A stretch of DNA of 64,000 bases from a virus. The first letter of the stretch is position 1. Each line of letters starts with the position of its first letter. Of this stretch, positions 12,650 through 58,115 are shown one piece after another. The stretch spans positions 82,137-146,136 of the IMG/VR virus record IMGVR_UViG_3300020424_000002; one strand, 5' to 3'. Under the pieces are notes generated by a model. The model did not search any database. It was not told the DNA's origin and saw only the letters and a program-made list of their open reading frames with translations. The translations under genes and the position numbers were made by a program.

Positions 12650-12679
12650 AGTATACAATTTTATGTACCTATGTGTCAA
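12650..12679 (-). promoter_or_regulatory. Class A (early-type) sigma70 promoter
   Basis: TTGACA-cataggtacataaaattg-TATACT (18 bp spacer, GGTACA box). Confidence 0.75.
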
Positions 12680-13357: not shown

Positions 13358-13387
13358 ATTATACTAAAATGTGTACCCTAGTGTAAA
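13358..13387 (-). promoter_or_regulatory. Class A promoter
   Basis: TTTACA-ctagggtacacattttag-TATAAT. Confidence 0.7.
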
Positions 13388-13605: not shown

Positions 13606-13635
13606 ATTATATGAAAAAATGTACCTATGTGTCAA
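13606..13635 (-). promoter_or_regulatory. Class A promoter
   Basis: TTGACA-cataggtacattttttca-TATAAT. Confidence 0.8.
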
Positions 13636-43237: not shown

Positions 43238-43267
43238 ATTATATGAAAAAATGTACCTATAAGTCAA
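43238..43267 (-). promoter_or_regulatory. Class A promoter
   Basis: TTGACT-tataggtacattttttca-TATAAT. Confidence 0.8.
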
Positions 43268-43342
43268 TGGCGGTCTCTAGGAGAATCGAACTCCTCTCTC
43301 TGCCGTGACAAGGCAGTATTCTTACCGATGAACTAAGAGACC
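43268..43342 (-). tRNA. tRNA-Asp (GTC) with encoded CCA
   Basis: GGTCTCT...CTGCC TTGTCAC GGCAG...AGGAG TTCGATT CTCCT AGAGACC G CCA cloverleaf. Confidence 0.93.
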
Positions 43343-43639: not shown

Positions 43640-43669
43640 ATTATATGAAATTATGTACCTATGAGTCAA
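43640..43669 (-). promoter_or_regulatory. Class A promoter
   Basis: TTGACT-cataggtacataatttca-TATAAT. Confidence 0.8.
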
Positions 43670-45593: not shown

Positions 45594-46375
45594 ACTTCAC
45601 TCCAAACCCTATCAAACTTGTTGGGGTCTTCATAATATTCATTCACATTACTCACTGGTTGTGGTATTTTTCTCGTAACTAATTTATCCATATTAACTTT
45701 TTTAGTTGTATCTAATCCTACAGTTTCAATAATAGATTGTGGATTACTAACTAGGTCTTCATATGCAATCCATCCATCTGTAACTGGTATTGAATTGATT
45801 ATGTATCTTTCTATAGATTCTTTGAAGTCTTCTATGTTTTTTCTTATTACTTCAATCCTACCAACTAAAGTTTTTCTTTTGTTAAGTATATAGTCTGCTG
45901 TTGTATCATCAACTGCATGAAAGGATTTAATTCCAGCAACAAATGCTAACTCTAATGATACATACCATGCTTTAATATCTTTTCTATATAATGTAAATAC
46001 TTTATACCCATACTTTTCTTTAAGTACTTCTGGTTTTACATAATCAGATTCATTCCAAATATTTGCACTAGTAAGTGGAAGTTTTTTACCACTTTCAAGT
46101 AACCCAAAAAACTCGTCTGAAATTTCTTGAAAGTTACTACCAAATGGATGTTCTATACCATGATTATCTAAACTTACTCCTAGAAATGGTTCTAATGGAT
46201 TTTTTATTTTTTTAAAATAAGTTGGTAACTCTGTACCATGTAATGCATTTATTATTGCACCAAGGTTTGCTTCTCCATCTTCTTTTGATAATACTTTTGA
46301 TTGTATAAGGTTGTTTATTATTAATTGTATTGCTAAGTAAGAGCCTGTTCGGGCATGTGTATTTAATAATATCAT
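45575..46375 (-). CDS. Sulfotransferase-like protein
   Basis: THARTGS, LYRKD, IAYEDLVSNP. Confidence 0.55.
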   Translation of the reverse strand: MILLNTHARTGSYLAIQLIINNLIQSKVLSKEDGEANLGAIINALHGTELPTYFKKIKNPLEPFLGVSLDNHGIEHPFGSNFQEISDEFFGLLESGKKLPLTSANIWNESDYVKPEVLKEKYGYKVFTLYRKDIKAWYVSLELAFVAGIKSFHAVDDTTADYILNKRKTLVGRIEVIRKNIEDFKESIERYIINSIPVTDGWIAYEDLVSNPQSIIETVGLDTTKKVNMDKLVTRKIPQPVSNVNEYYEDPNKFDRVWSEVWKNEK

Positions 46376-52648: not shown

Positions 52649-53095
52649 TTAACCTGCTGGGTTAGTAAACTTCAACCAATCGATTGCATTCTTTATTGAT
52701 TGATGTCTCCATGTAATAATATTTAGTATCTCTTTTAAAGCATCAACACATTCAGTTAAATATTCTACCTTTAGTTTAAGGTCTGATAAATCTTTGTCTG
52801 CATTGAAATAGTAATTGAAGTCTTGTTTGATAACTCTATGACCATCGAATGGGTCATATGACCAACCTAGTTCATCTATCTCTTCTTTAGATAGTTTATC
52901 TGTATACCATAACCATTTCGTTTTAAGTAATGTATTGTATTTAACCTCATAAGATTTAAGAGATAATCTTTTTTCGTTTAAGAGTTCTAGGTATTTTGCA
53001 TGTAAAGAAGGTGTATTTAAGGATGCTTTATCCAAATCAATCTGGTCGATTACAGAATCAACCTTCCACATACTTTGTATTTCTTCTAATGTCAT
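52649..53095 (-). CDS. uvsY: Recombination mediator UvsY
   Basis: MWKVDSVID...SLHAKYL...IKNAIDWLKF. Confidence 0.9.
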   Translation of the reverse strand: MTLEEIQSMWKVDSVIDQIDLDKASLNTPSLHAKYLELLNEKRLSLKSYEVKYNTLLKTKWLWYTDKLSKEEIDELGWSYDPFDGHRVIKQDFNYYFNADKDLSDLKLKVEYLTECVDALKEILNIITWRHQSIKNAIDWLKFTNPAG

Positions 53096-53134: not shown

Positions 53135-53716
53135 TTATGATGAGGATGCTATTTCAAATGTAGTAAATTGGAAAGATGCACTGCATGTTACATAGGTAAT
53201 TCCACCAGCAACAGTAGTATCCATTGTAATCTCACTTAACGATGTAGGAAATGCACCTTGTATTCTAACATATCTGTTAGGATTATTTGCAGCTGTTGTA
53301 ATTACAATAGTCATATCTGAGTATAATGCATCATAATCACCAGAACCATCATATGGTTGTTCTGCTCTTCGATTTGCACCTACTAGACTTCTAAATTTTT
53401 CTGGGTCTGTAGAACTAGTAATTTGAGACATCCATGTATATAACTCAGTCCAGTTTTCCATGTTTTCATCGACAATAAAATTAACAGTTAATTCACCAAG
53501 GTTTATTTTATCGCCTGGAACTATAACATTTCTACCTAGGTTAGTAGGTTGTTGAATTTCTGCAACACTTACAGATGGAACATTAACACCAGTTGCAAAG
53601 TATTTTGTATTAGGTAATTTCTTAACTAATAATTCGAATTGAGTTGGTGCAAGATAGGATAGATTATCTGGAAGATTACCCGCCCATGTTGCAGTTGAGA
53701 TTTGTCTTGTAGTCAT
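53135..53716 (-). CDS. 3: Tail completion/sheath stabiliser gp3
   Basis: NLSYLAPTQF, FIVDENMENW, AFPTSLS; late promoter at 53722-53729. Confidence 0.85.
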   Translation of the reverse strand: MTTRQISTATWAGNLPDNLSYLAPTQFELLVKKLPNTKYFATGVNVPSVSVAEIQQPTNLGRNVIVPGDKINLGELTVNFIVDENMENWTELYTWMSQITSSTDPEKFRSLVGANRRAEQPYDGSGDYDALYSDMTIVITTAANNPNRYVRIQGAFPTSLSEITMDTTVAGGITYVTCSASFQFTTFEIASSS

Positions 53717-53731
53717 ATATGTATTTATATC

Positions 53732-53760
53732 AAAAAGAAAGGGAGTTTTTCAACTCCCTT
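53732..53760 (-). terminator. Intrinsic terminator of the riboswitch/DUF4278 unit
   Basis: AAGGGAGTT-N4-AACTCCCTT with a T-rich tail on the minus strand. Confidence 0.7.
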
Positions 53761-53771
53761 CCTAAAATCAC

Positions 53772-53888
53772 TTAAGCAGCAACTTTGCCAGTAATTCCAC
53801 GATAAGTAACTTCTTTACCTTTCTTGGATTTTCTTGCTTTGCTTTTAAGAGTTTTTGCATCGTATTTGATACCTCTGTAGCAATACAT
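53772..53888 (-). CDS. DUF4278-family peptide (38 aa, not in track)
   Basis: GGAGG RBS; MYCYRGIKYDAKTLKSKARKSKKGKEVTYRGITGKVAA with two YRG(I/V) motifs. Confidence 0.85.
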   Translation of the reverse strand: MYCYRGIKYDAKTLKSKARKSKKGKEVTYRGITGKVAA

Positions 53889-53950
53889 AATAGCCTCCAG
53901 TTTTCATTTCGATTTCGTACATACAACTTTCGTTGCACACCCTTCTCCAT

Positions 53951-54075
53951 GCGTTCCTTCGGTAAGATGTCGGTCTCTGTTCCCACTTGGGTACTTAGCT
54001 TGCCTTTCTTCTATTGCAGAAAAAAGAGGTTTTCTTGTCTTCCTACTTCCGACTCCAAGAATGGAGTTGAACGAG
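53951..54075 (-). promoter_or_regulatory. Glutamine riboswitch (glnA/Downstream-peptide class) with an enlarged P3
   Basis: CGUUC (P1) - ACUCCA-uucu-UGGAGU (P2) - CGGAAGUAGG...CUUACCGAAG - GAACGC; TATAAATA at 54099-54106; DUF4278 downstream. Confidence 0.85.
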
Positions 54076-54139
54076 TTGATACTTTTCAGTATCATTAATA
54101 TTTATAGCTTAAAAAAGTCCAACTTTTTGGCGATTTTTG

Positions 54140-54169
54140 TTGACAGGCAGGTGCATTTTTTTGTATAAT
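54140..54169 (+). promoter_or_regulatory. Class A promoter on the plus strand
   Basis: TTGACA-ggcaggtgcatttttttg-TATAAT (18 bp spacer, GGTGCA variant of the box). Confidence 0.8.
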
Positions 54170-54174
54170 ACCCT

Positions 54175-55343
54175 TGTAATTGAGAATTACCGAGTGCTTG
54201 AGGATTCGACCTCGTAAAAAACCAGTGAAAATCCTACTTGATTAAGGTTTAATCCAGATGATACTTGTGTTGCAAGGTTCTTAATCATTAGAAACAGTTC
54301 ACGAAGTTCAAAAGTCTTGAGAGGTCACAGGTTCGAATCCTGTCTGTCGCCGAGGGCACAGTGGAGAAGTGGTGTGTATCTCTTGAAATGTCAATTGGAT
54401 GTTGCTATTGCAGTTAAACATTTGAGACAGAGCATAAGACTTATCGTAAATCGTAGAGTCATGTGAGTAAGCATGTGGTGAGAATGTCCCTAGTGACAAT
54501 CAATATAACCAGTAACTACTTCACTACCTTGATTCAACCATTACACAACTTTGTCCATCCTCTAGTTAAAGTGTGAGGATTGTAAGATATCTTACCACTA
54601 AGGGACATTGTAAAAGAGAACGAGTACCATATGGATGCTAGATTCGTTGACCTTGTTAATCTGACAAGGTAGAGTTTACGCACATTGAAAGTTCGGTGGG
54701 TTGATACTGTATCAATACTGGGAGACATAACAAACGAAGGTATTTAACGCGAAAAAAGGGGACTAGACATGGTTAACTAACGAGGGCATCTGGTGGTAAA
54801 AAAATCAGATTTTATTGAATTCCTGTTGGGGTCAGTGATGACTTTCCTAACTTTAGTAGTGGTGATATATGAGTACAAGATAGAAGCGTGTTGACTGTTT
54901 GTTGTAAAAACAAGAGATGAGACTCAAGCGTGCAACAGACAGATAGTCGGAGACCTATACAGAATCCGAGCGTAGAAAGAACTCTTGAGTCAGAATATGA
55001 TGGTAAGTGTATGGATGTGAGTTGAAAACGATTGGTGTCTGGTACTTGTTAGATTCTTGGAGAATAAGAGGGTATAGTCGTCTAACAGTTAGTAGGGAAT
55101 ACGAAATCTCGCTCAAGGTGGTGATGAAACAGTGGTTGCAAACACCGAGTAGTCATTAACGAACTTCACCTTTTTTTAAATGAAATAGTTTCGAGGGGTC
55201 GTTCCCTTGCCTGAAAGATGGAGACAAGAACTTATTTACGATAAGTGAGTTAAAATTATTTTATTAGAGACTTGATTCGACAAGAATGAAGATTGATTGA
55301 TGCAGACAAGTCTCGAAACCCACCTTTATGGTGGGTTTTTTTT
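54175..55343 (+). ncRNA. Large (~1.17 kb) highly structured non-coding RNA, family unassigned
   Basis: No credible ORF; bounded by a promoter and a terminator; more GC/G-rich than flanks; more than 12 helices, T-loop-like hairpins and a candidate pseudoknot. Confidence 0.75.
55316..55343 (+). terminator. Intrinsic terminator of the plus-strand RNA
   Basis: AAACCCACC-tttat-GGTGGG followed by 8 T. Confidence 0.85.
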
Positions 55344-55348
55344 AGCAT

Positions 55349-55377
55349 AAAAAAAGGGACTCCGAAGAGTCCCTTTT
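55349..55377 (-). terminator. gp23 terminator with a UUCG loop
   Basis: Minus strand GGGACTC-TTCG-GAGTCCC-TTTTTTT. Confidence 0.9.
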
Positions 55378-55404
55378 AGAAAAGTCTACGACTTTTAAAA
55401 AACC

Positions 55405-56715
55405 TTATAGAATATTTTCTATTTCGATTTTTCTGTAGTAGAAGTTTGAACCAGCAGACGCTAAACCATCACTTGGAGCACTACCTACGAAAGGATTAGA
55501 AATCATTCCATATCTAGTTTTGAATCCAATTTTTGGTTGGAAGCTGTTCTCACCAACTGCACGAACCATTTGTAATGGAACATATGGGCAGTAGAAGACA
55601 CCAGCGTCGTATGGGTTTGAACCTCTGTAACCAACAGTCATGTAACCTTCGTTGTTGTGACCACTTACTGGGTCAAGAGTGTAATATGGGTCGATGTACA
55701 CTTTGTACTTACCATTTAGAACACCAACAAAAGTGTTACCAGCATCATCAACATTTAACTCAGTGTTAAGTGCTGGTGCATAGTCTAATACACCCGCCAT
55801 TGATAATGCAGAAGCTACATCAGATGAACAAAGGATAAAGTTACCTTTACCTCTTCTTGATTCTCTTGCGATTACATTAGCATCTCTTTCAACTTGGAAG
55901 AGTAAACCTTTGAACTTCTCAACTGACCATCTACCAGATGAATCAACATCTAAGTCGAATCTACCAGCATTAGCAACACCAGTTTGAGCACCATTTTTTG
56001 CTTGGATGTTAACAGTTCTTACAACTTCTCTGTTAATCTCTGCAAGTATTTCAGCAGATAAGATGTTTGCAAGTTCTGTTTCTGCATCTAAACCATGAAT
56101 TGCTTTAAGGTCTTGTGCAAGTTCTATTGTGTATTCAGCTTTAAGAGCTCTTGACTTAGCAGTAACAGTTGCTTTCTCGATTGTGAAAGCCATTGATGCA
56201 AATGGGTTACTCGCAGAGTCACCTTTTGCTTCTGCAGCTGCTGTAGTCATACCAGTACCAGTTGCATAAGTAGCTGCATCCCCAAATGGGTCTGTACCTG
56301 CTTGTGTTCCTGCTCCAGCAAAGTCTGAATCAGCTTCGTCAAACAATGCTTCAGTCATAGCTAATCTTGAAGTATTGTCGTTATATCTAGCCTTCATACA
56401 GAATACTAATCCTGTTGGGCCAGTCATTGGTTGCACACCACAGATGTCGTATGCAATTAGGTTTGGAAGAGACCTACGAACTAAAGAAATTAGAATAGGA
56501 TTCCAGTTGTCAACACCTGTTCCACCAACAGCACCACCGGCGTTGTTGATAGGTGCATCCTCTGAAAGGATTCCATTCTCTTCATTAAAGGCTCTTTCTT
56601 GGTTCTCTAGAACCACAGAAGTTACAGCTTTTTTGTAAGGGTCACTGATTTCTGGTAAATCTGGATGACTCAATACTGGCTGCCACTTCTCTTGTAAGTT
56701 TTCTGACATAAACAT
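55405..56715 (-). CDS. 23: Major capsid protein gp23
   Basis: GVQPMTGPTGLVF, KSRALKAEYT, ELAQDLKAIHGLDAETEL, FYCPYVPL, FKTRYG. Confidence 0.98.
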   Translation of the reverse strand: MFMSENLQEKWQPVLSHPDLPEISDPYKKAVTSVVLENQERAFNEENGILSEDAPINNAGGAVGGTGVDNWNPILISLVRRSLPNLIAYDICGVQPMTGPTGLVFCMKARYNDNTSRLAMTEALFDEADSDFAGAGTQAGTDPFGDAATYATGTGMTTAAAEAKGDSASNPFASMAFTIEKATVTAKSRALKAEYTIELAQDLKAIHGLDAETELANILSAEILAEINREVVRTVNIQAKNGAQTGVANAGRFDLDVDSSGRWSVEKFKGLLFQVERDANVIARESRRGKGNFILCSSDVASALSMAGVLDYAPALNTELNVDDAGNTFVGVLNGKYKVYIDPYYTLDPVSGHNNEGYMTVGYRGSNPYDAGVFYCPYVPLQMVRAVGENSFQPKIGFKTRYGMISNPFVGSAPSDGLASAGSNFYYRKIEIENIL

Positions 56716-56759: not shown

Positions 56760-58115
56760 TTACTTGTATAAGTTAGGGTCAACTTTTCCTATTGCGGCAG
56801 AATATGCAGCCATACTTGGGTCAAGGATTTTATCCTCAGTCGAAGTATTTTCATCGCTATCACTAACCACTTCTTCATCTAACTGTAATTTCGATTTCTC
56901 TCCACTAAAGTAAGACTCCTTAATTGTTTTGACATTAGACTCAAAATCTTCATCTTGGTCTATGTCTTCAATCAATTTTGTAAGTTTCTCAACTTCACTT
57001 GTAGTCAAGTCACTTGAAACTTCTGAAACCACTTTGTTTCGTACAAGTTCATCTCTTTCAGATGTTAAGTCGATGTTTTTAGAAACTTCTTCATTTAGTT
57101 TAGCTTCAACATCTTCTATTTTACTTGCAAGTTCGTCAACGACATCTAATTTGTCATCTGGAACTTCAACATAATGGTCTTCGAATAGTGCTTTAAGTCC
57201 TTGTATAAAGTTTTCTGTTAACTCAGACTTAAGTCCTCTTTCGATTGCAAGTTCGTTATCTTTAACCCACTCTTCTGCAACATAACCTAAGAAAGAGTCA
57301 ACTTTGTTAACTAAATCTTCTTTGATTTCGTTAGATGCTTCAACAATCTCGTCTCTCTTCTGAGATTCAAGTTCTTCTTTGATTTCACTAACTTTTGCAG
57401 ATACAGCAGCTTCGAATACTACTTTTGCTTTGTTTTTGAATTCTTCTGAAAGGTCTTCACCACCGACTAATGCATCGATATCGTCTGACATATCGAAAGA
57501 TTCTTTCTTAGACTCTTCTTTTTCGTCTTCGTCATCATCTTCGTCTTCGTCATCACCATGAGAAGCTTCTTTCTTAGTAGCTTCATCCATATCTTCTTCA
57601 TCGTCTTCATCTTCGTCATCTTCTTTAGATGCTTCTAAGATTGCAGTTAAAGATTCTTTCACAACTTCTTCGTCCTCTGATTTGAAATGTTCAGCAATTT
57701 TCTTAAGAAGGTCTGCTTTTGTAGACTCTGATTTTTCATCTTCGTCTTCATCTTCGTCTTCTTCGTCATCTTTCTTCATCATTTCATTGACTAAGGACTG
57801 GATGTCATCCTTATCAAGACCTTTAAGTTCTTCAATGATTTTTCTTAATGCTTCCATCTTAGTCATATCTTCAACTACGATTTCCTCATCATTTTCTGTT
57901 TCTTCATAGTTTGAAGCTGCAGATAATTTTTGAGGTGCATCTTTCTTATCACTGTCACCTTTTCTCTTTTTACTAGGTTTAGTAGAATCTGCAGCTTTAT
58001 CTACAGATGCTAGAGATTTAGGCACTGGGTCTTTATCTGGAGTAACGACACCTTTATTAGCAACTGGTGCAGATGCCTCAGTCACTTCGTCTTGATTTTT
58101 AATATCTTCTGACAT
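56760..58115 (-). CDS. 22: Prohead core scaffold gp22 with a long acidic N-terminal extension
   Basis: LSEEFKNKAKVVFEAAV, YVAEEWVKDNELAIERGLK; synteny. Confidence 0.9.
   Translation of the reverse strand: MSEDIKNQDEVTEASAPVANKGVVTPDKDPVPKSLASVDKAADSTKPSKKRKGDSDKKDAPQKLSAASNYEETENDEEIVVEDMTKMEALRKIIEELKGLDKDDIQSLVNEMMKKDDEEDEDEDEDEKSESTKADLLKKIAEHFKSEDEEVVKESLTAILEASKEDDEDEDDEEDMDEATKKEASHGDDEDEDDDEDEKEESKKESFDMSDDIDALVGGEDLSEEFKNKAKVVFEAAVSAKVSEIKEELESQKRDEIVEASNEIKEDLVNKVDSFLGYVAEEWVKDNELAIERGLKSELTENFIQGLKALFEDHYVEVPDDKLDVVDELASKIEDVEAKLNEEVSKNIDLTSERDELVRNKVVSEVSSDLTTSEVEKLTKLIEDIDQDEDFESNVKTIKESYFSGEKSKLQLDEEVVSDSDENTSTEDKILDPSMAAYSAAIGKVDPNLYK

What the first reader, a model, noticed from the sequence alone, without database searches (positions are those of the whole stretch)
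54140..55343. Self-contained ~1.17 kb structured non-coding RNA gene transcribed against the genome's direction, next to gp23
Seen: about 1.3 kb without a credible ORF in an otherwise wall-to-wall coding genome. It is bounded by a plus-strand TTGACA-N18-TATAAT promoter (54140-54169), of the same class as six minus-strand early-type promoters, and by its own terminator (55316-55343), which abuts the convergent gp23 terminator. Pairings seen: TGATTAAG 54239/CTTAATCA 54280; AAGTCTT 54312/AAGACTT 54436; AATGTCCCT 54483/AGGGACATT 54601; ACCTTGTT/GACAAGGT 54650-54670; ATCTGGT/ATCAGAT 54788-54810; GTCA-GTGA-TGAC (GNRA loop) near 54831; CTGTTTGTTGT 54895/GCAACAGACAG 54932 (G-U pairs favour the + strand), whose loop GACTCAAG 54921 matches CTTGAGTC 54984 (pseudoknot); TGTTAGA/TCTAACA 55047-55087; AAGGTG/CACCTT 55115-55172; GAGACTTG 55267/CAAGTCTC 55307. 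Known: phages carry large ornate RNAs such as GOLLD and ROOL, of unknown function. Inference: an early-expressed large RNA of an unassigned, possibly new class (scaffold, decoy, anti-defence RNA or ribozyme). This is my best candidate for an undescribed system.
Basis: partly seen in the sequence, partly recalled or inferred. Interest (0 to 1): 0.92.

Follow-up and report, generated by a model that had tools for sequence, protein, structure and literature searches.

The report
New large folded phage RNA gene
The gene-free stretch beside the capsid gene is a real gene for a roughly 1.0-1.2 kb, intricately folded non-coding RNA of a family I could not find described, carried as a movable cassette by uncultured marine phages; it contains a built-in tRNA look-alike and carries signs that copies of the RNA may stick to each other, but its job is unknown.

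Summary
The locus is as described. It is the largest ORF-free gap in the window (53717-55404). It starts with a perfect TTGACA-N18-TATAAT promoter (54140-54169, +) and ends in a plus-strand terminator hairpin (55318-55343).

About 60 homologous loci (31 distinct at 98% identity) were recovered from viral and metagenome contigs. None came from 50,697 phage records. A motif scan of 185,579 prokaryote species genomes gave only chance hits.

No ORF is conserved (longest ATG ORF 78 aa or less). No Rfam family fits. Helices covary strongly: 94.8% and 96.8% of cells are paired, against 48% or less in slid controls, and 27 pairs change on both sides.

Anatomy:
- a 5' H-type pseudoknot;
- a YrlA-type tRNA mimic (T arm, capped 7-bp acceptor, D arm, joined through the anticodon stem);
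- a variable middle domain;
- a near-invariant 3' core;
- one long-range closing helix.

Two hairpin loops change sequence yet stay self-complementary (GAUAUC/CCAUGG/CCUAGG and UUGCAA/UUCGAA). This is the signature used to support intermolecular kissing loops in OLE and GOLLD, so homo-oligomerisation is my leading, untested, mechanism.

The cassette sits at four or more genome positions. A second copy of its promoter in the same genome drives a protein gene instead. Expression was not tested. Earlier scan notes on other DNA report analogous, non-homologous RNAs (T5 RNAX).

The parts
54140..54169 (+). Sigma-70-type early promoter (TTGACA-N18-TATAAT); predicted transcript start near 54176
   Evidence: 12/12 consensus match. 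Promoter class enriched in the window. A TTGACA-N18-TATAAT-like site lies 20-41 nt upstream of the first helix in most family members. A second 87%-identical copy sits in the own genome at G000:C1:46292-46336. Actual transcription was not tested.
54191..54235 (+). 5' H-type pseudoknot. Stem 1: 54191-95 with 54210-14. Its loop 54201-06 pairs with 54230-35.
   Evidence: stem 1 has 4 of 5 pairs with changes on both sides. The pseudoknot stem has 3 of 6 such pairs (GC<->AU in 9-12 rows) and is 97% paired. Type 3 RNAs covary again, seen by eye (AUCG/CGAU; GAGAGUU/AACUCU).
54239..54287 (+). Hairpin/junction H3 (UGAUUAAG/CUUAAUCA) with a variable tip
   Evidence: helix 3: 3 pairs changed on both sides, 93% paired.
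54303..54309 (+). 5' strand of the long-range closing helix (GAAGUUC); pairs with 55161-55167
   Evidence: 23 of 23 rows paired. L145 and L154 carry a matched insertion on both strands (GAAAGUUC with GArCUUUC).
54312..54442 (+). tRNA-mimic domain, YrlA-type topology:
- anticodon-stem analogue 54312-18/54436-42;
- variable loop AGGUC 54322-26;
- T arm 54327-43 (loop UUCGAAU);
- capped 7-bp acceptor-like stem 54344-61;
- U8/G9 at 54362-63;
- D arm 54364-82 with GG;
- extra arm 54397-54423.
   Evidence: Searches show covariation in the T stem, acceptor stem and extra arm, and invariant counterparts of U8, A14, G18, G19, A21, G53, U54, U55, C56, A58 and C61. ARAGORN calls a tRNA in 30 of 30 members after in-silico re-permutation and none in native order. 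The Rfam YrlA model aligns at 19.7 and 23.4 bits, below its gathering score of 69.
54444..54872 (+). Variable middle domain. Predicted closing helix 54444-52/54864-72. Hairpins 54482-54501 (loop CCUAGU), 54650-70, 54788-54810 (optional), 54829-44 (GNRA loop).
   Evidence: RNAalifold on 16 clade-1 sequences gives 112 pairs, few of them broken, with many G-U-compatible one-sided changes. This domain aligns poorly between clades.
54582..54595 (+). Palindromic hairpin 'Loop A' (GUAAGAUAUCUUAC; centre GAUAUC): candidate symmetric kissing loop
   Evidence: 26 of 27 distinct members carry a perfect 10-16 nt palindrome here, with three different centres (GAUAUC, CCAUGG, CCUAGG). The one exception is L102.
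54886..55160 (+). Near-invariant 3' core:
- GCGU 54886-89 / GCGU 54970-73;
- long hairpin 54895-905/54932-42;
- hairpin 54947-51/54965-69;
- UGAG 55018-21 / CUCA 55112-15;
- 'B-block' 55047-53/55081-87 with inner hairpin 55054-58/55066-70;
- GGGA 55095-98 / UCUC 55107-10;
- terminal hairpin 55121-25/55152-56.
   Evidence: 96.8% of cells paired against 45% or less when slid, with 10 pairs changed on both sides. Many invariant G-U pairs make the fold plus-strand specific. The B-block stem covaries in type 3 (AUAGGA/UCCUAU).
55132..55145 (+). 'Loop B' hairpin: stem GUG/CAC around loop GUUGCAAA, with palindromic hexamer UUGCAA at 55136-41. Candidate symmetric kissing loop.
   Evidence: the hexamer is UUGCAA in 42 loci and UUCGAA in 14, and never non-palindromic. 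The same stem (CAGUG/CACCG) carries either loop. Stem pairs covary (helix 11). Type 3 RNAs carry UUGCAA at the tip of their 3' hairpin.
55161..55178 (+). 3' strand of the long-range helix (GAACUUC, 55161-67), followed by a U-tract; end of the conserved core
   Evidence: Homology with contigs in other genomic contexts stops at about 55176.
55179..55343 (+). Lineage-specific 3' extension (hairpin 55267-74/55307-14) and intrinsic terminator hairpin 55318-55343
   Evidence: 55181-55315 is absent from L098 and L131, whose flanks are otherwise 93% identical. Other lineages have a different tail that also ends in a strong terminator. One-sided changes in the hairpin give G-U pairs on the plus strand only.

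Best explanation
Shown.
- 54140-55343 is a promoter-to-terminator cassette encoding a plus-strand, multi-domain structured non-coding RNA: about 1.17 kb here, with a conserved core of about 1.0 kb.
- It belongs to a family found in uncultured marine phage contigs. Most members are relatives of Pelagibacter and OM43 T4-like myophages, and at least one is a non-T4 phage.
- The fold comprises a 5' H-type pseudoknot, a tRNA mimic with the YrlA topology (T arm, capped acceptor stem, D arm, attached to the rest through the anticodon stem), a variable middle domain and a near-invariant 3' core. A long-range helix closes the body.

Inferred.
1. Host RNA polymerase transcribes it early from the sigma-70-type promoter.
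2. The cassette moves between genome positions by recombination at the shared early-promoter/terminator sequences, as described for PeSL cassettes of T4-type phages.
3. Two loops whose hexamers stay self-complementary while changing mediate symmetric loop-loop contacts between copies. The RNA would then act as a homo-oligomer (dimer, ring or cage), as shown for OLE, ROOL and GOLLD.
4. The exposed tRNA-shaped elbows engage a host factor that recognises tRNA, such as RNase P, the CCA-adding enzyme, a modification enzyme or a tRNA-directed nuclease. This would titrate or redirect that factor during takeover.

My odds: structured RNA gene of an undescribed family about 0.9; oligomerisation about 0.35; tRNA-factor decoy or scaffold about 0.2.
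For: - ORF-free locus with promoter and terminator.
- About 60 homologues, 31 distinct.
- No conserved ORF. No protein family for the ORFs.
- Covariation. Plus-strand G-U pairs. G>C skew on the plus strand.
- No Rfam family.
- tRNA mimic: with YrlA topology as described in PMC4201824.
- Palindromic loop covariation. The same criterion was used for OLE L9.3 and GOLLD L21a in PMC12286853.
- Mobility: the same core at 95-97% identity lies between gp3-like and gp23, or between gp2 and gp4, with flanks that blastn cannot align. The gp2 proteins are only 80% identical. Clade 2 and type 3 sit in other contexts.
- The own genome has the same promoter and leader at the gp4|gp2 site, there driving an 85-aa ORF.
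- PeSL literature: PMC2839356, PMC4122927.
Against:
- Single-sequence folding energy is no better than shuffles (z 0.07 for the plus strand; -0.40 for the 5' part).
- Most 3'-core pairs are invariant, so they neither support nor refute the fold.
- Loop-palindrome switches may rest on few independent events. Whole hairpins appear to be exchanged between lineages.
- UUGCAA-like words elsewhere in the RNA could in principle pair within one molecule, though not consistently across members.
- No partner protein is linked to the locus. No Ro60/TROVE, RtcB or tmRNA is in the 81%-complete phage record.
- Distribution is patchy: the RNA is absent from Melnitz and three large relatives. It is therefore dispensable for the phage type.
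Confidence: 0.85

Rival explanations
1. It is a very divergent member of a known RNA class that Rfam models miss: tmRNA (relatives such as Melnitz carry a permuted tmRNA), GOLLD/ROOL, RNase P RNA, a group I intron, or an over-grown Y RNA.
For: - The 5' pseudoknot followed by UAAAAA recalls tmRNA PK1 (from memory).
- Melnitz has a permuted tmRNA next to a glutamine riboswitch, and this RNA also neighbours a glutamine riboswitch.
- The YrlA model aligns to the tRNA mimic at 19.7-23.4 bits.
- AUAGUC motifs recall group I J8/7-P7 (from memory).
Against: - No Rfam hit at E up to 10 for any of these classes in the window or in variant loci, apart from the sub-threshold YrlA match and a 15.8-bit T-arm match to tmRNA in L114.
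- ARAGORN finds no tmRNA.
- The acceptor stem is capped, lacks G3-U70 and cannot be charged as it stands.
- GGAUUCGAC is not conserved in the family.
- There are no flanking exons, and the stem enclosing the AUAGUC block covaries in a way that does not fit group I P3/P7 topology.
- The phage record has no Ro60.
Confidence: 0.05
2. It is a selfish or neutral mobile non-coding cassette (PeSL cargo, or a ribozyme-based or otherwise self-propagating element). Its RNA has no function for the phage beyond its own spread.
For: Four or more insertion contexts, near-identical copies in divergent flanks, patchy presence among relatives, and promoter repeats that can mediate recombination.
Against: Structure is maintained by compensatory changes across lineages that are 62-66% identical. 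The 3' core of about 300 nt is nearly invariant. That argues for selection on the RNA itself. No transposase, integrase or reverse transcriptase is linked, and no terminal inverted repeats were noticed (not searched for systematically).
Confidence: 0.07
3. The region is protein-coding after all (several tiny genes, or a decayed gene), or it acts at the DNA level (replication origin or packaging signal) with the transcript incidental.
For: - ORFs of 49-64 aa exist on both strands.
- T4 origins use promoter-primed transcripts (from memory).
- The locus lies in the head/tail gene region.
Against: - No ORF is conserved across members and the longest ATG ORF in any frame is 78 aa or less.
- No Pfam or PHROG hit.
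- Substitutions preserve base pairs, including G-U pairs valid on one strand only.
- The element works as a unit in unrelated genome positions.
Confidence: 0.03

Closest known systems
GOLLD, ROOL and OLE large ornate RNAs (Rfam; cryo-EM in PMC12286853)
   Same: - Very large, multi-domain, pseudoknotted RNA.
- GOLLD and ROOL are phage- or prophage-borne and have no known function.
- Like GOLLD, it has a conserved 3' part and a more variable 5' part.
- Loop hexamers switch between palindromes, as reported for OLE L9.3 and GOLLD L21a.
   Different: - No sequence or covariance-model similarity.
- Different hosts (marine T4-like phages related to SAR11/OM43 phages).
- The tRNA mimic lies inside the RNA, rather than tRNA genes lying next to it.
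- Oligomerisation is only inferred here.
YrlA / bacterial Y RNAs (RF02553; PMC4201824)
   Same: Same permuted tRNA-like topology: closing stem, variable-loop analogue, T arm, capped acceptor-like stem-loop, U-R, D arm. The tRNA tertiary nucleotides are conserved. The 7-bp acceptor resembles that of M. smegmatis YrlA, which RNase P cuts.
   Different: - Scores 19.7-23.4 bits against a gathering score of 69.
- The module is one domain of a 1-kb RNA rather than a roughly 100-nt RNA.
- No Ro60/Rsr gene in the phage record.
- No Ro-binding helix was identified.
RNAX (rnaX) of phage T5 and relatives (AY543070 40848-41566, 'stable RNA with unknown functions')
   Same: Large (about 0.7-0.85 kb) promoter-driven phage RNA that contains a tRNA-shaped domain; function unknown.
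   Different: - No detectable homology.
- T5's tRNA-like domain is in normal order and is joined to the rest through its acceptor ends. Here it is permuted, capped and joined through the anticodon stem.
- T5's RNA heads a tRNA cluster.
PeSL (promoter-early stem-loop) cassettes of T4-type phages (PMC2839356, PMC4122927)
   Same: An early promoter and a stem-loop terminator bracket an exchangeable cargo. The same promoter and leader recur at another site in the genome with a different cargo.
   Different: Cargo described so far is protein genes; here it is a 1-kb structured RNA. The recombination mechanism was not tested.
Permuted (two-piece) tmRNA of Melnitz and pelagimyophages (RF04321/RF01849; PMC9004378)
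   Same: A permuted T-arm/acceptor arrangement in an early-promoter RNA gene of the same phage group; neighbourhood of a glutamine riboswitch.
   Different: No model hit, capped acceptor, a true D arm, no tag reading frame recognised, and three times the size.

Membership tests
Canonical tRNA | Cloverleaf in 5'-acceptor/D/anticodon/T/acceptor-3' order, with a free 3' end and an anticodon loop | tested here: not met
   ARAGORN and the Rfam tRNA model find nothing above threshold at 54300-54450 (15.3-bit T-arm fragment only). The acceptor is capped by a 3-5 nt loop and the anticodon loop is replaced by the rest of the RNA.
Canonical tRNA | Conserved tertiary-interaction nucleotides and arm lengths (L-shape) | tested here: met
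   Invariant counterparts of U8, A14, G18, G19, A21, G53, U54, U55, C56, A58 and C61. After in-silico re-permutation with an artificial anticodon loop, ARAGORN calls a tRNA in 30 of 30 members.
YrlA / Y RNA (RF02553) | Score at or above the Rfam gathering threshold (69 bits) | tested here: not met
   19.7 bits (window) and 23.4 bits (L114).
YrlA / Y RNA (RF02553) | T arm, then capped 'acceptor' stem-loop, then D arm, closed by a stem | tested here: met
   topology as described in PMC4201824.
YrlA / Y RNA (RF02553) | Encoded next to a Ro60/Rsr (TROVE) gene and carrying its binding helix | tested here: not met
   No TROVE domain in the 146-kb phage record, which is 81% complete. Neighbours differ between contexts. 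The Ro-binding helix itself was not tested.
tmRNA (one-piece or permuted) | Match to tmRNA models; chargeable acceptor with G3-U70; tag reading frame | tested here: not met
   No hit in the window or own genome. Only noise appears at lowered ARAGORN thresholds. The acceptor is capped and position 3-70 is C-G. A tag frame was not searched for exhaustively.
GOLLD / ROOL / OLE | Match to the family covariance model | tested here: not met
   All 4227 Rfam models were scanned at E up to 10 over 53800-55500. ROOL RF03087 was run separately, but its 14 control genomes gave no hit either, so that run is uninformative.
GOLLD / ROOL / OLE | Homo-oligomeric quaternary structure held by kissing loops | not testable with these tools
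   Only the sequence signature is present: palindromic loop hexamers that switch while staying palindromic (criterion from PMC12286853).
T5 RNAX | Sequence or structure homology to rnaX | tested here: not met
   nhmmer profiles and model R1 hit only T arms in AY543070 39500-43000. The tRNA-like domain has a different topology.
Group I intron | Insertion in an exon; P3-P8/P4-P6 core with a G-binding P7; Rfam Intron_gpI match | tested here: not met
   No Rfam match. The unit has its own promoter and terminator and moves as a whole. The stem enclosing the AUAGUC block pairs locally and covaries.
PeSL cassette | Early promoter plus stem-loop terminator bracketing exchangeable cargo, with repeated promoter sequences at alternative sites | tested here: met
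   The recombination itself is inferred.

The most novel reading that the evidence does not exclude
A previously undescribed class of about 1-kb phage RNA, carried by uncultured relatives of the myophages that infect SAR11 and OM43. It assembles through two symmetric kissing loops into an RNA-only homo-oligomer (ring or cage) that displays tRNA-shaped elbows. It is made early in infection to capture or redirect a host factor that recognises tRNA. This would make it a functional cousin of GOLLD and ROOL, with a built-in clue to what such particles bind.
Probability: 0.25. Interest if true: 0.92.

Novelty: new variant of a known kind. Interest (0 to 1): 0.82.

Why it matters
Very large structured RNAs without a known function are rare; GOLLD, ROOL, OLE and T5 RNAX are the main examples. 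What they do is a long-standing open question. This family adds an unrelated example from uncultured marine phage contigs whose closest isolates infect SAR11 and OM43. It offers three handles the others lack:
- an embedded tRNA mimic that retains every tertiary-contact nucleotide, which points to tRNA-recognising partners;
- modular rearrangement of the same domains in three architectures, which shows which modules belong together;
- two covarying palindromic loops, which give a directly testable prediction of self-assembly.

It also shows that the promoter/terminator cassettes which shuffle genes in T4-type phages can carry an RNA gene.

Tried and rejected
- tmRNA idea, raised by GGAUUCGAC, CUCGUAAAAA and a T arm: rejected. 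Those words are not conserved in the family. There is no Rfam or ARAGORN hit. The T arm is followed by a capped stem. tmRNA is also absent from relatives G001-G005, so there is no complementary distribution.
- Group I intron and RNase P resemblances (recalled motifs AUAGUC, ACAGA...CUUAUCG): no model support and the topology does not fit.
- Ro60/RtcB partner: absent from the record.
- Homologues among 80 gp23-linked loci at 58-93% protein identity: none.
- Phage isolate collection: blastn with three family variants found nothing.
- Prokaryote species genomes: 21 motif hits, all chance. About 30 of the 63 metagenome motif hits were also chance.
- Thermodynamic z-scores: uninformative.
- DUF6267 beside clade-2 copies: only a faint PezT-like kinase hit, so no functional link was drawn.
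- I misremembered GOLLD's accession; RF01998 is a group II intron domain model. The all-family scan covers GOLLD.
Full report
**Locus.** The window comes from a 146-kb uncultured virus record. Its major capsid protein is 68% identical to that of Methylophilales phage Melnitz and 64% to that of Pelagibacter phage HTVC008M.

Genes around the finding lie on the minus strand:
- UvsY, 52649-53095;
- a gp3-like tail protein, 53135-53716;
- gp23, 55405-56715;
- the scaffold protein, 56760-58115.

Positions 53717-55404 form the largest stretch of the window free of ORFs of 80 aa or more, three times the next largest. The left part of this gap holds a glutamine riboswitch (53948-54075, minus strand, 46 bits). 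The riboswitch precedes a 38-aa DUF4278 ORF.

The unit starts with a 12/12 TTGACA-N18-TATAAT promoter at 54140-54169. It ends with a plus-strand hairpin and U-run at 55318-55343, visible, which abuts the gp23 terminator. The promoter belongs to a class that occurs 7 times in the window at one mismatch or less, against 1.46 expected. Five minus-strand copies share its spacer motif. The plus strand of the unit is G-rich (G 23.9%, C 15.1%), the opposite of the window's plus strand as a whole. This fits plus-strand transcription.

**Homologues.** blastn against 50,697 phage records found nothing. None of 80 loci fetched through gp23 had a homologue. Exact-motif scans of viral contigs and of metagenome contigs recovered about 60 loci, 31 of them distinct at 98% identity. 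About 30 of the 63 metagenome motif hits, and all 21 hits in prokaryote species genomes, were chance matches.

Members fall into three groups:
- Clade 1: 84-98% identical to the window.
- Clade 2: about 66% identical to clade 1 overall, but nearly identical across the 3' 300 nt.
- Type 3: a rearranged form in which the same 5' pseudoknot domain is followed by about 600 nt containing the B-block, and the tRNA mimic sits at the 3' end.

**Not coding, and not a known RNA.**
- The longest ATG ORF in any frame is 78 aa or less in every member, and no ORF is conserved.
- The window's ORFs hit no Pfam or PHROG family.
- Rfam 15 gives no family at gathering thresholds for the window or for ten variant loci.
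- At E up to 10, only terminator look-alikes and sub-threshold tRNA-related matches appear.
- ARAGORN finds no tRNA or tmRNA here.

**Structure, 5' domain.** On 26 sequences of the 5' 265 nt, my helices are 94.8% paired, against 30-48% when the partner is slid. Seventeen pairs change on both sides, against 0-5 in the slid controls.

This domain contains an H-type pseudoknot: stem 54191-95/54210-14, whose loop 54201-06 pairs with 54230-35. Three of the pseudoknot pairs switch between G-C and A-U. It also contains hairpin H3 and the tRNA-like module.

**Structure, 3' core.** On 26 sequences of the 3' 317 nt, 96.8% of cells are paired, against 35-45% when slid, and 10 pairs change on both sides. 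Many G-U pairs are invariant, so the fold exists only on the plus strand.

**Structure, long-range helix.** GAAGUUC 54303-09 pairs with GAACUUC 55161-67 in 23 of 23 rows. Two sequences carry a matched insertion on both strands.

**Structure, middle domain.** Within clade 1 the middle domain (54444-54872) folds into many hairpins with few broken pairs. It aligns poorly between clades.

Seven of 11 are supported and one is always paired but invariant. One is replaced by a covarying local hairpin, and two are weak.

**Folding energy.** Single-sequence folding energy is unremarkable.

**The tRNA mimic.** Positions 54312-54442 read, in order:
- anticodon-stem 3' strand;
- variable loop AGGUC;
- T arm (ACAGG-UUCGAAU-CCUGU);
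- a 7-bp acceptor-like stem capped by a 3-5 nt loop;
- U-G at positions 8 and 9;
- D arm with the GG dinucleotide;
- an extra arm;
- anticodon-stem 5' strand.

This is a tRNA opened at the anticodon loop and closed at the acceptor end. In type 3 the anticodon-stem analogue follows the D arm directly and covaries: GGAUUAAG/CUUAGUCU against GGUUUAGG/CCUAGACU.

The nucleotides that hold a tRNA in its L shape are invariant across all three groups. When the two halves are rejoined in silico around an artificial anticodon loop, ARAGORN at default settings calls a tRNA in 30 of 30 members.

This topology is that of bacterial YrlA Y RNAs (PMC4201824). The Rfam YrlA model aligns to it, but at only 19.7-23.4 bits against a threshold of 69.

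A covariance model of the module (R1) finds one copy in the own genome. It finds none in Melnitz, none in three large relatives and none in 80 gp23 loci. The phage record holds no Ro60, RtcB or tmRNA.

**Palindromic loops.**
- Loop A: the hairpin at 54582-54595 is a perfect palindrome in 26 of 27 distinct members. Its sequence differs between lineages, with centres GAUAUC, CCAUGG or CCUAGG.
- Loop B: the hairpin at 55132-55145 carries UUGCAA in 42 loci and UUCGAA in 14, on an otherwise identical stem. It is never non-palindromic.
- Type 3 RNAs carry UUGCAA at the tip of their 3' hairpin.

Neighbouring loop nucleotides cannot pair with each other within one chain. Kretsch et al. used exactly this pattern (GGCC to GAUC or AGCU; GC to CG) to support intermolecular kissing loops in OLE and GOLLD (PMC12286853). 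I therefore propose that this RNA self-associates through two symmetric interfaces. This is an inference from sequence only.

**Mobility.** The cassette occupies several genome positions:
- Between the gp3-like gene (with the riboswitch cassette) and gp23: the window, L091, L097.
- Between gp2 and gp4, antisense to both: L087, L088, L089, L099, L102 and others.
- Clade 2, co-oriented with its neighbours, next to a PNKP-type phosphatase and DUF6267, or between NT5C and AhpC genes.
- Type 3, in one case just downstream of a protease-capsid fusion of a non-T4 phage.

The window and L087 share 95-97% identity over the core, but their flanks cannot be aligned by blastn. Their gp2 proteins are 80% identical.

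In the window's own genome, the gp4|gp2 gap holds an 87%-identical copy of the promoter and leader. There it drives an 85-aa ORF instead of the RNA. This matches the promoter-early/stem-loop (PeSL) cassettes that shuffle cargo in T4-type phages (PMC2839356, PMC4122927).

Positions 55181-55315 are an optional insert.

**Comparison with earlier scan notes.** One note on this same stretch reported T-loop-like hairpins. Several notes on other genomes describe T5 RNAX as a large RNA with a tRNA-shaped domain. I fetched T5. There is no homology. T5's tRNA-like domain is in normal order and joined through its acceptor ends. The resemblance is therefore one of kind, not of family.

**Verdict.** This is a real, conserved, structured RNA gene of a family absent from Rfam 15, from the papers I could search and from isolate genomes. 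Function is unknown. The best-supported mechanistic leads are self-assembly and tRNA mimicry, and both can be tested directly.

Noticed in passing
window 53948-54075 (-) and 53772-53888 (-): Glutamine riboswitch (46.4 bits) whose second hairpin carries a 79-nt insert where the model has 6 nt. A 38-aa DUF4278 ORF follows. The same cassette sits beside the RNA in L097. In Melnitz the riboswitch instead follows a permuted tmRNA.
   Followed up: partly
window 12650-12679, 13358-13387, 13606-13635, 43238-43267, 43640-43669 (all -): Five early-type promoters share the extended spacer motif ATAGGTACAT...TTT with the RNA's promoter. Two of them flank tRNA-Asp (43268-43342).
   Followed up: partly
L202:1192-1503 (= G000:C1 about 46025-46336, - strand): A copy of the RNA's promoter and leader lies between gp4 and gp2 of the same genome. 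It drives an 85-aa ORF with no family match, at exactly the site where relatives carry the RNA.
   Followed up: partly
window 54438-54442 versus 54456-54460: GACUU can pair either with AAGUC (54312-16, the anticodon-stem analogue) or with GAGUC just downstream. All three strands are invariant, so two alternative conformations cannot be told apart.
   Followed up: no
L103:8178-9458 (-), L103:6370-6816 (-), L103:286-1575 (-): The clade-2 carrier phage encodes, near the RNA and a tRNA-Ala, a DruA-like (Druantia) protein, a stand-alone PNKP-type phosphatase, and a cytidylyltransferase fused to an AAA_33/zeta-toxin-like kinase.
   Followed up: no
L112:3612-6311 (+): An 899-aa fusion of a Hva1-TUDOR domain, a prohead protease (S78) and an HK97-type capsid protein lies directly upstream of a type 3 copy of the RNA. 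This shows the RNA family also occurs outside T4-like phages.
   Followed up: no
window 55179-55315: The optional 135-nt insert in the RNA's 3' tail contains another UUCGA-type loop (GAUUCGAC) inside the hairpin 55267-55314.
   Followed up: no
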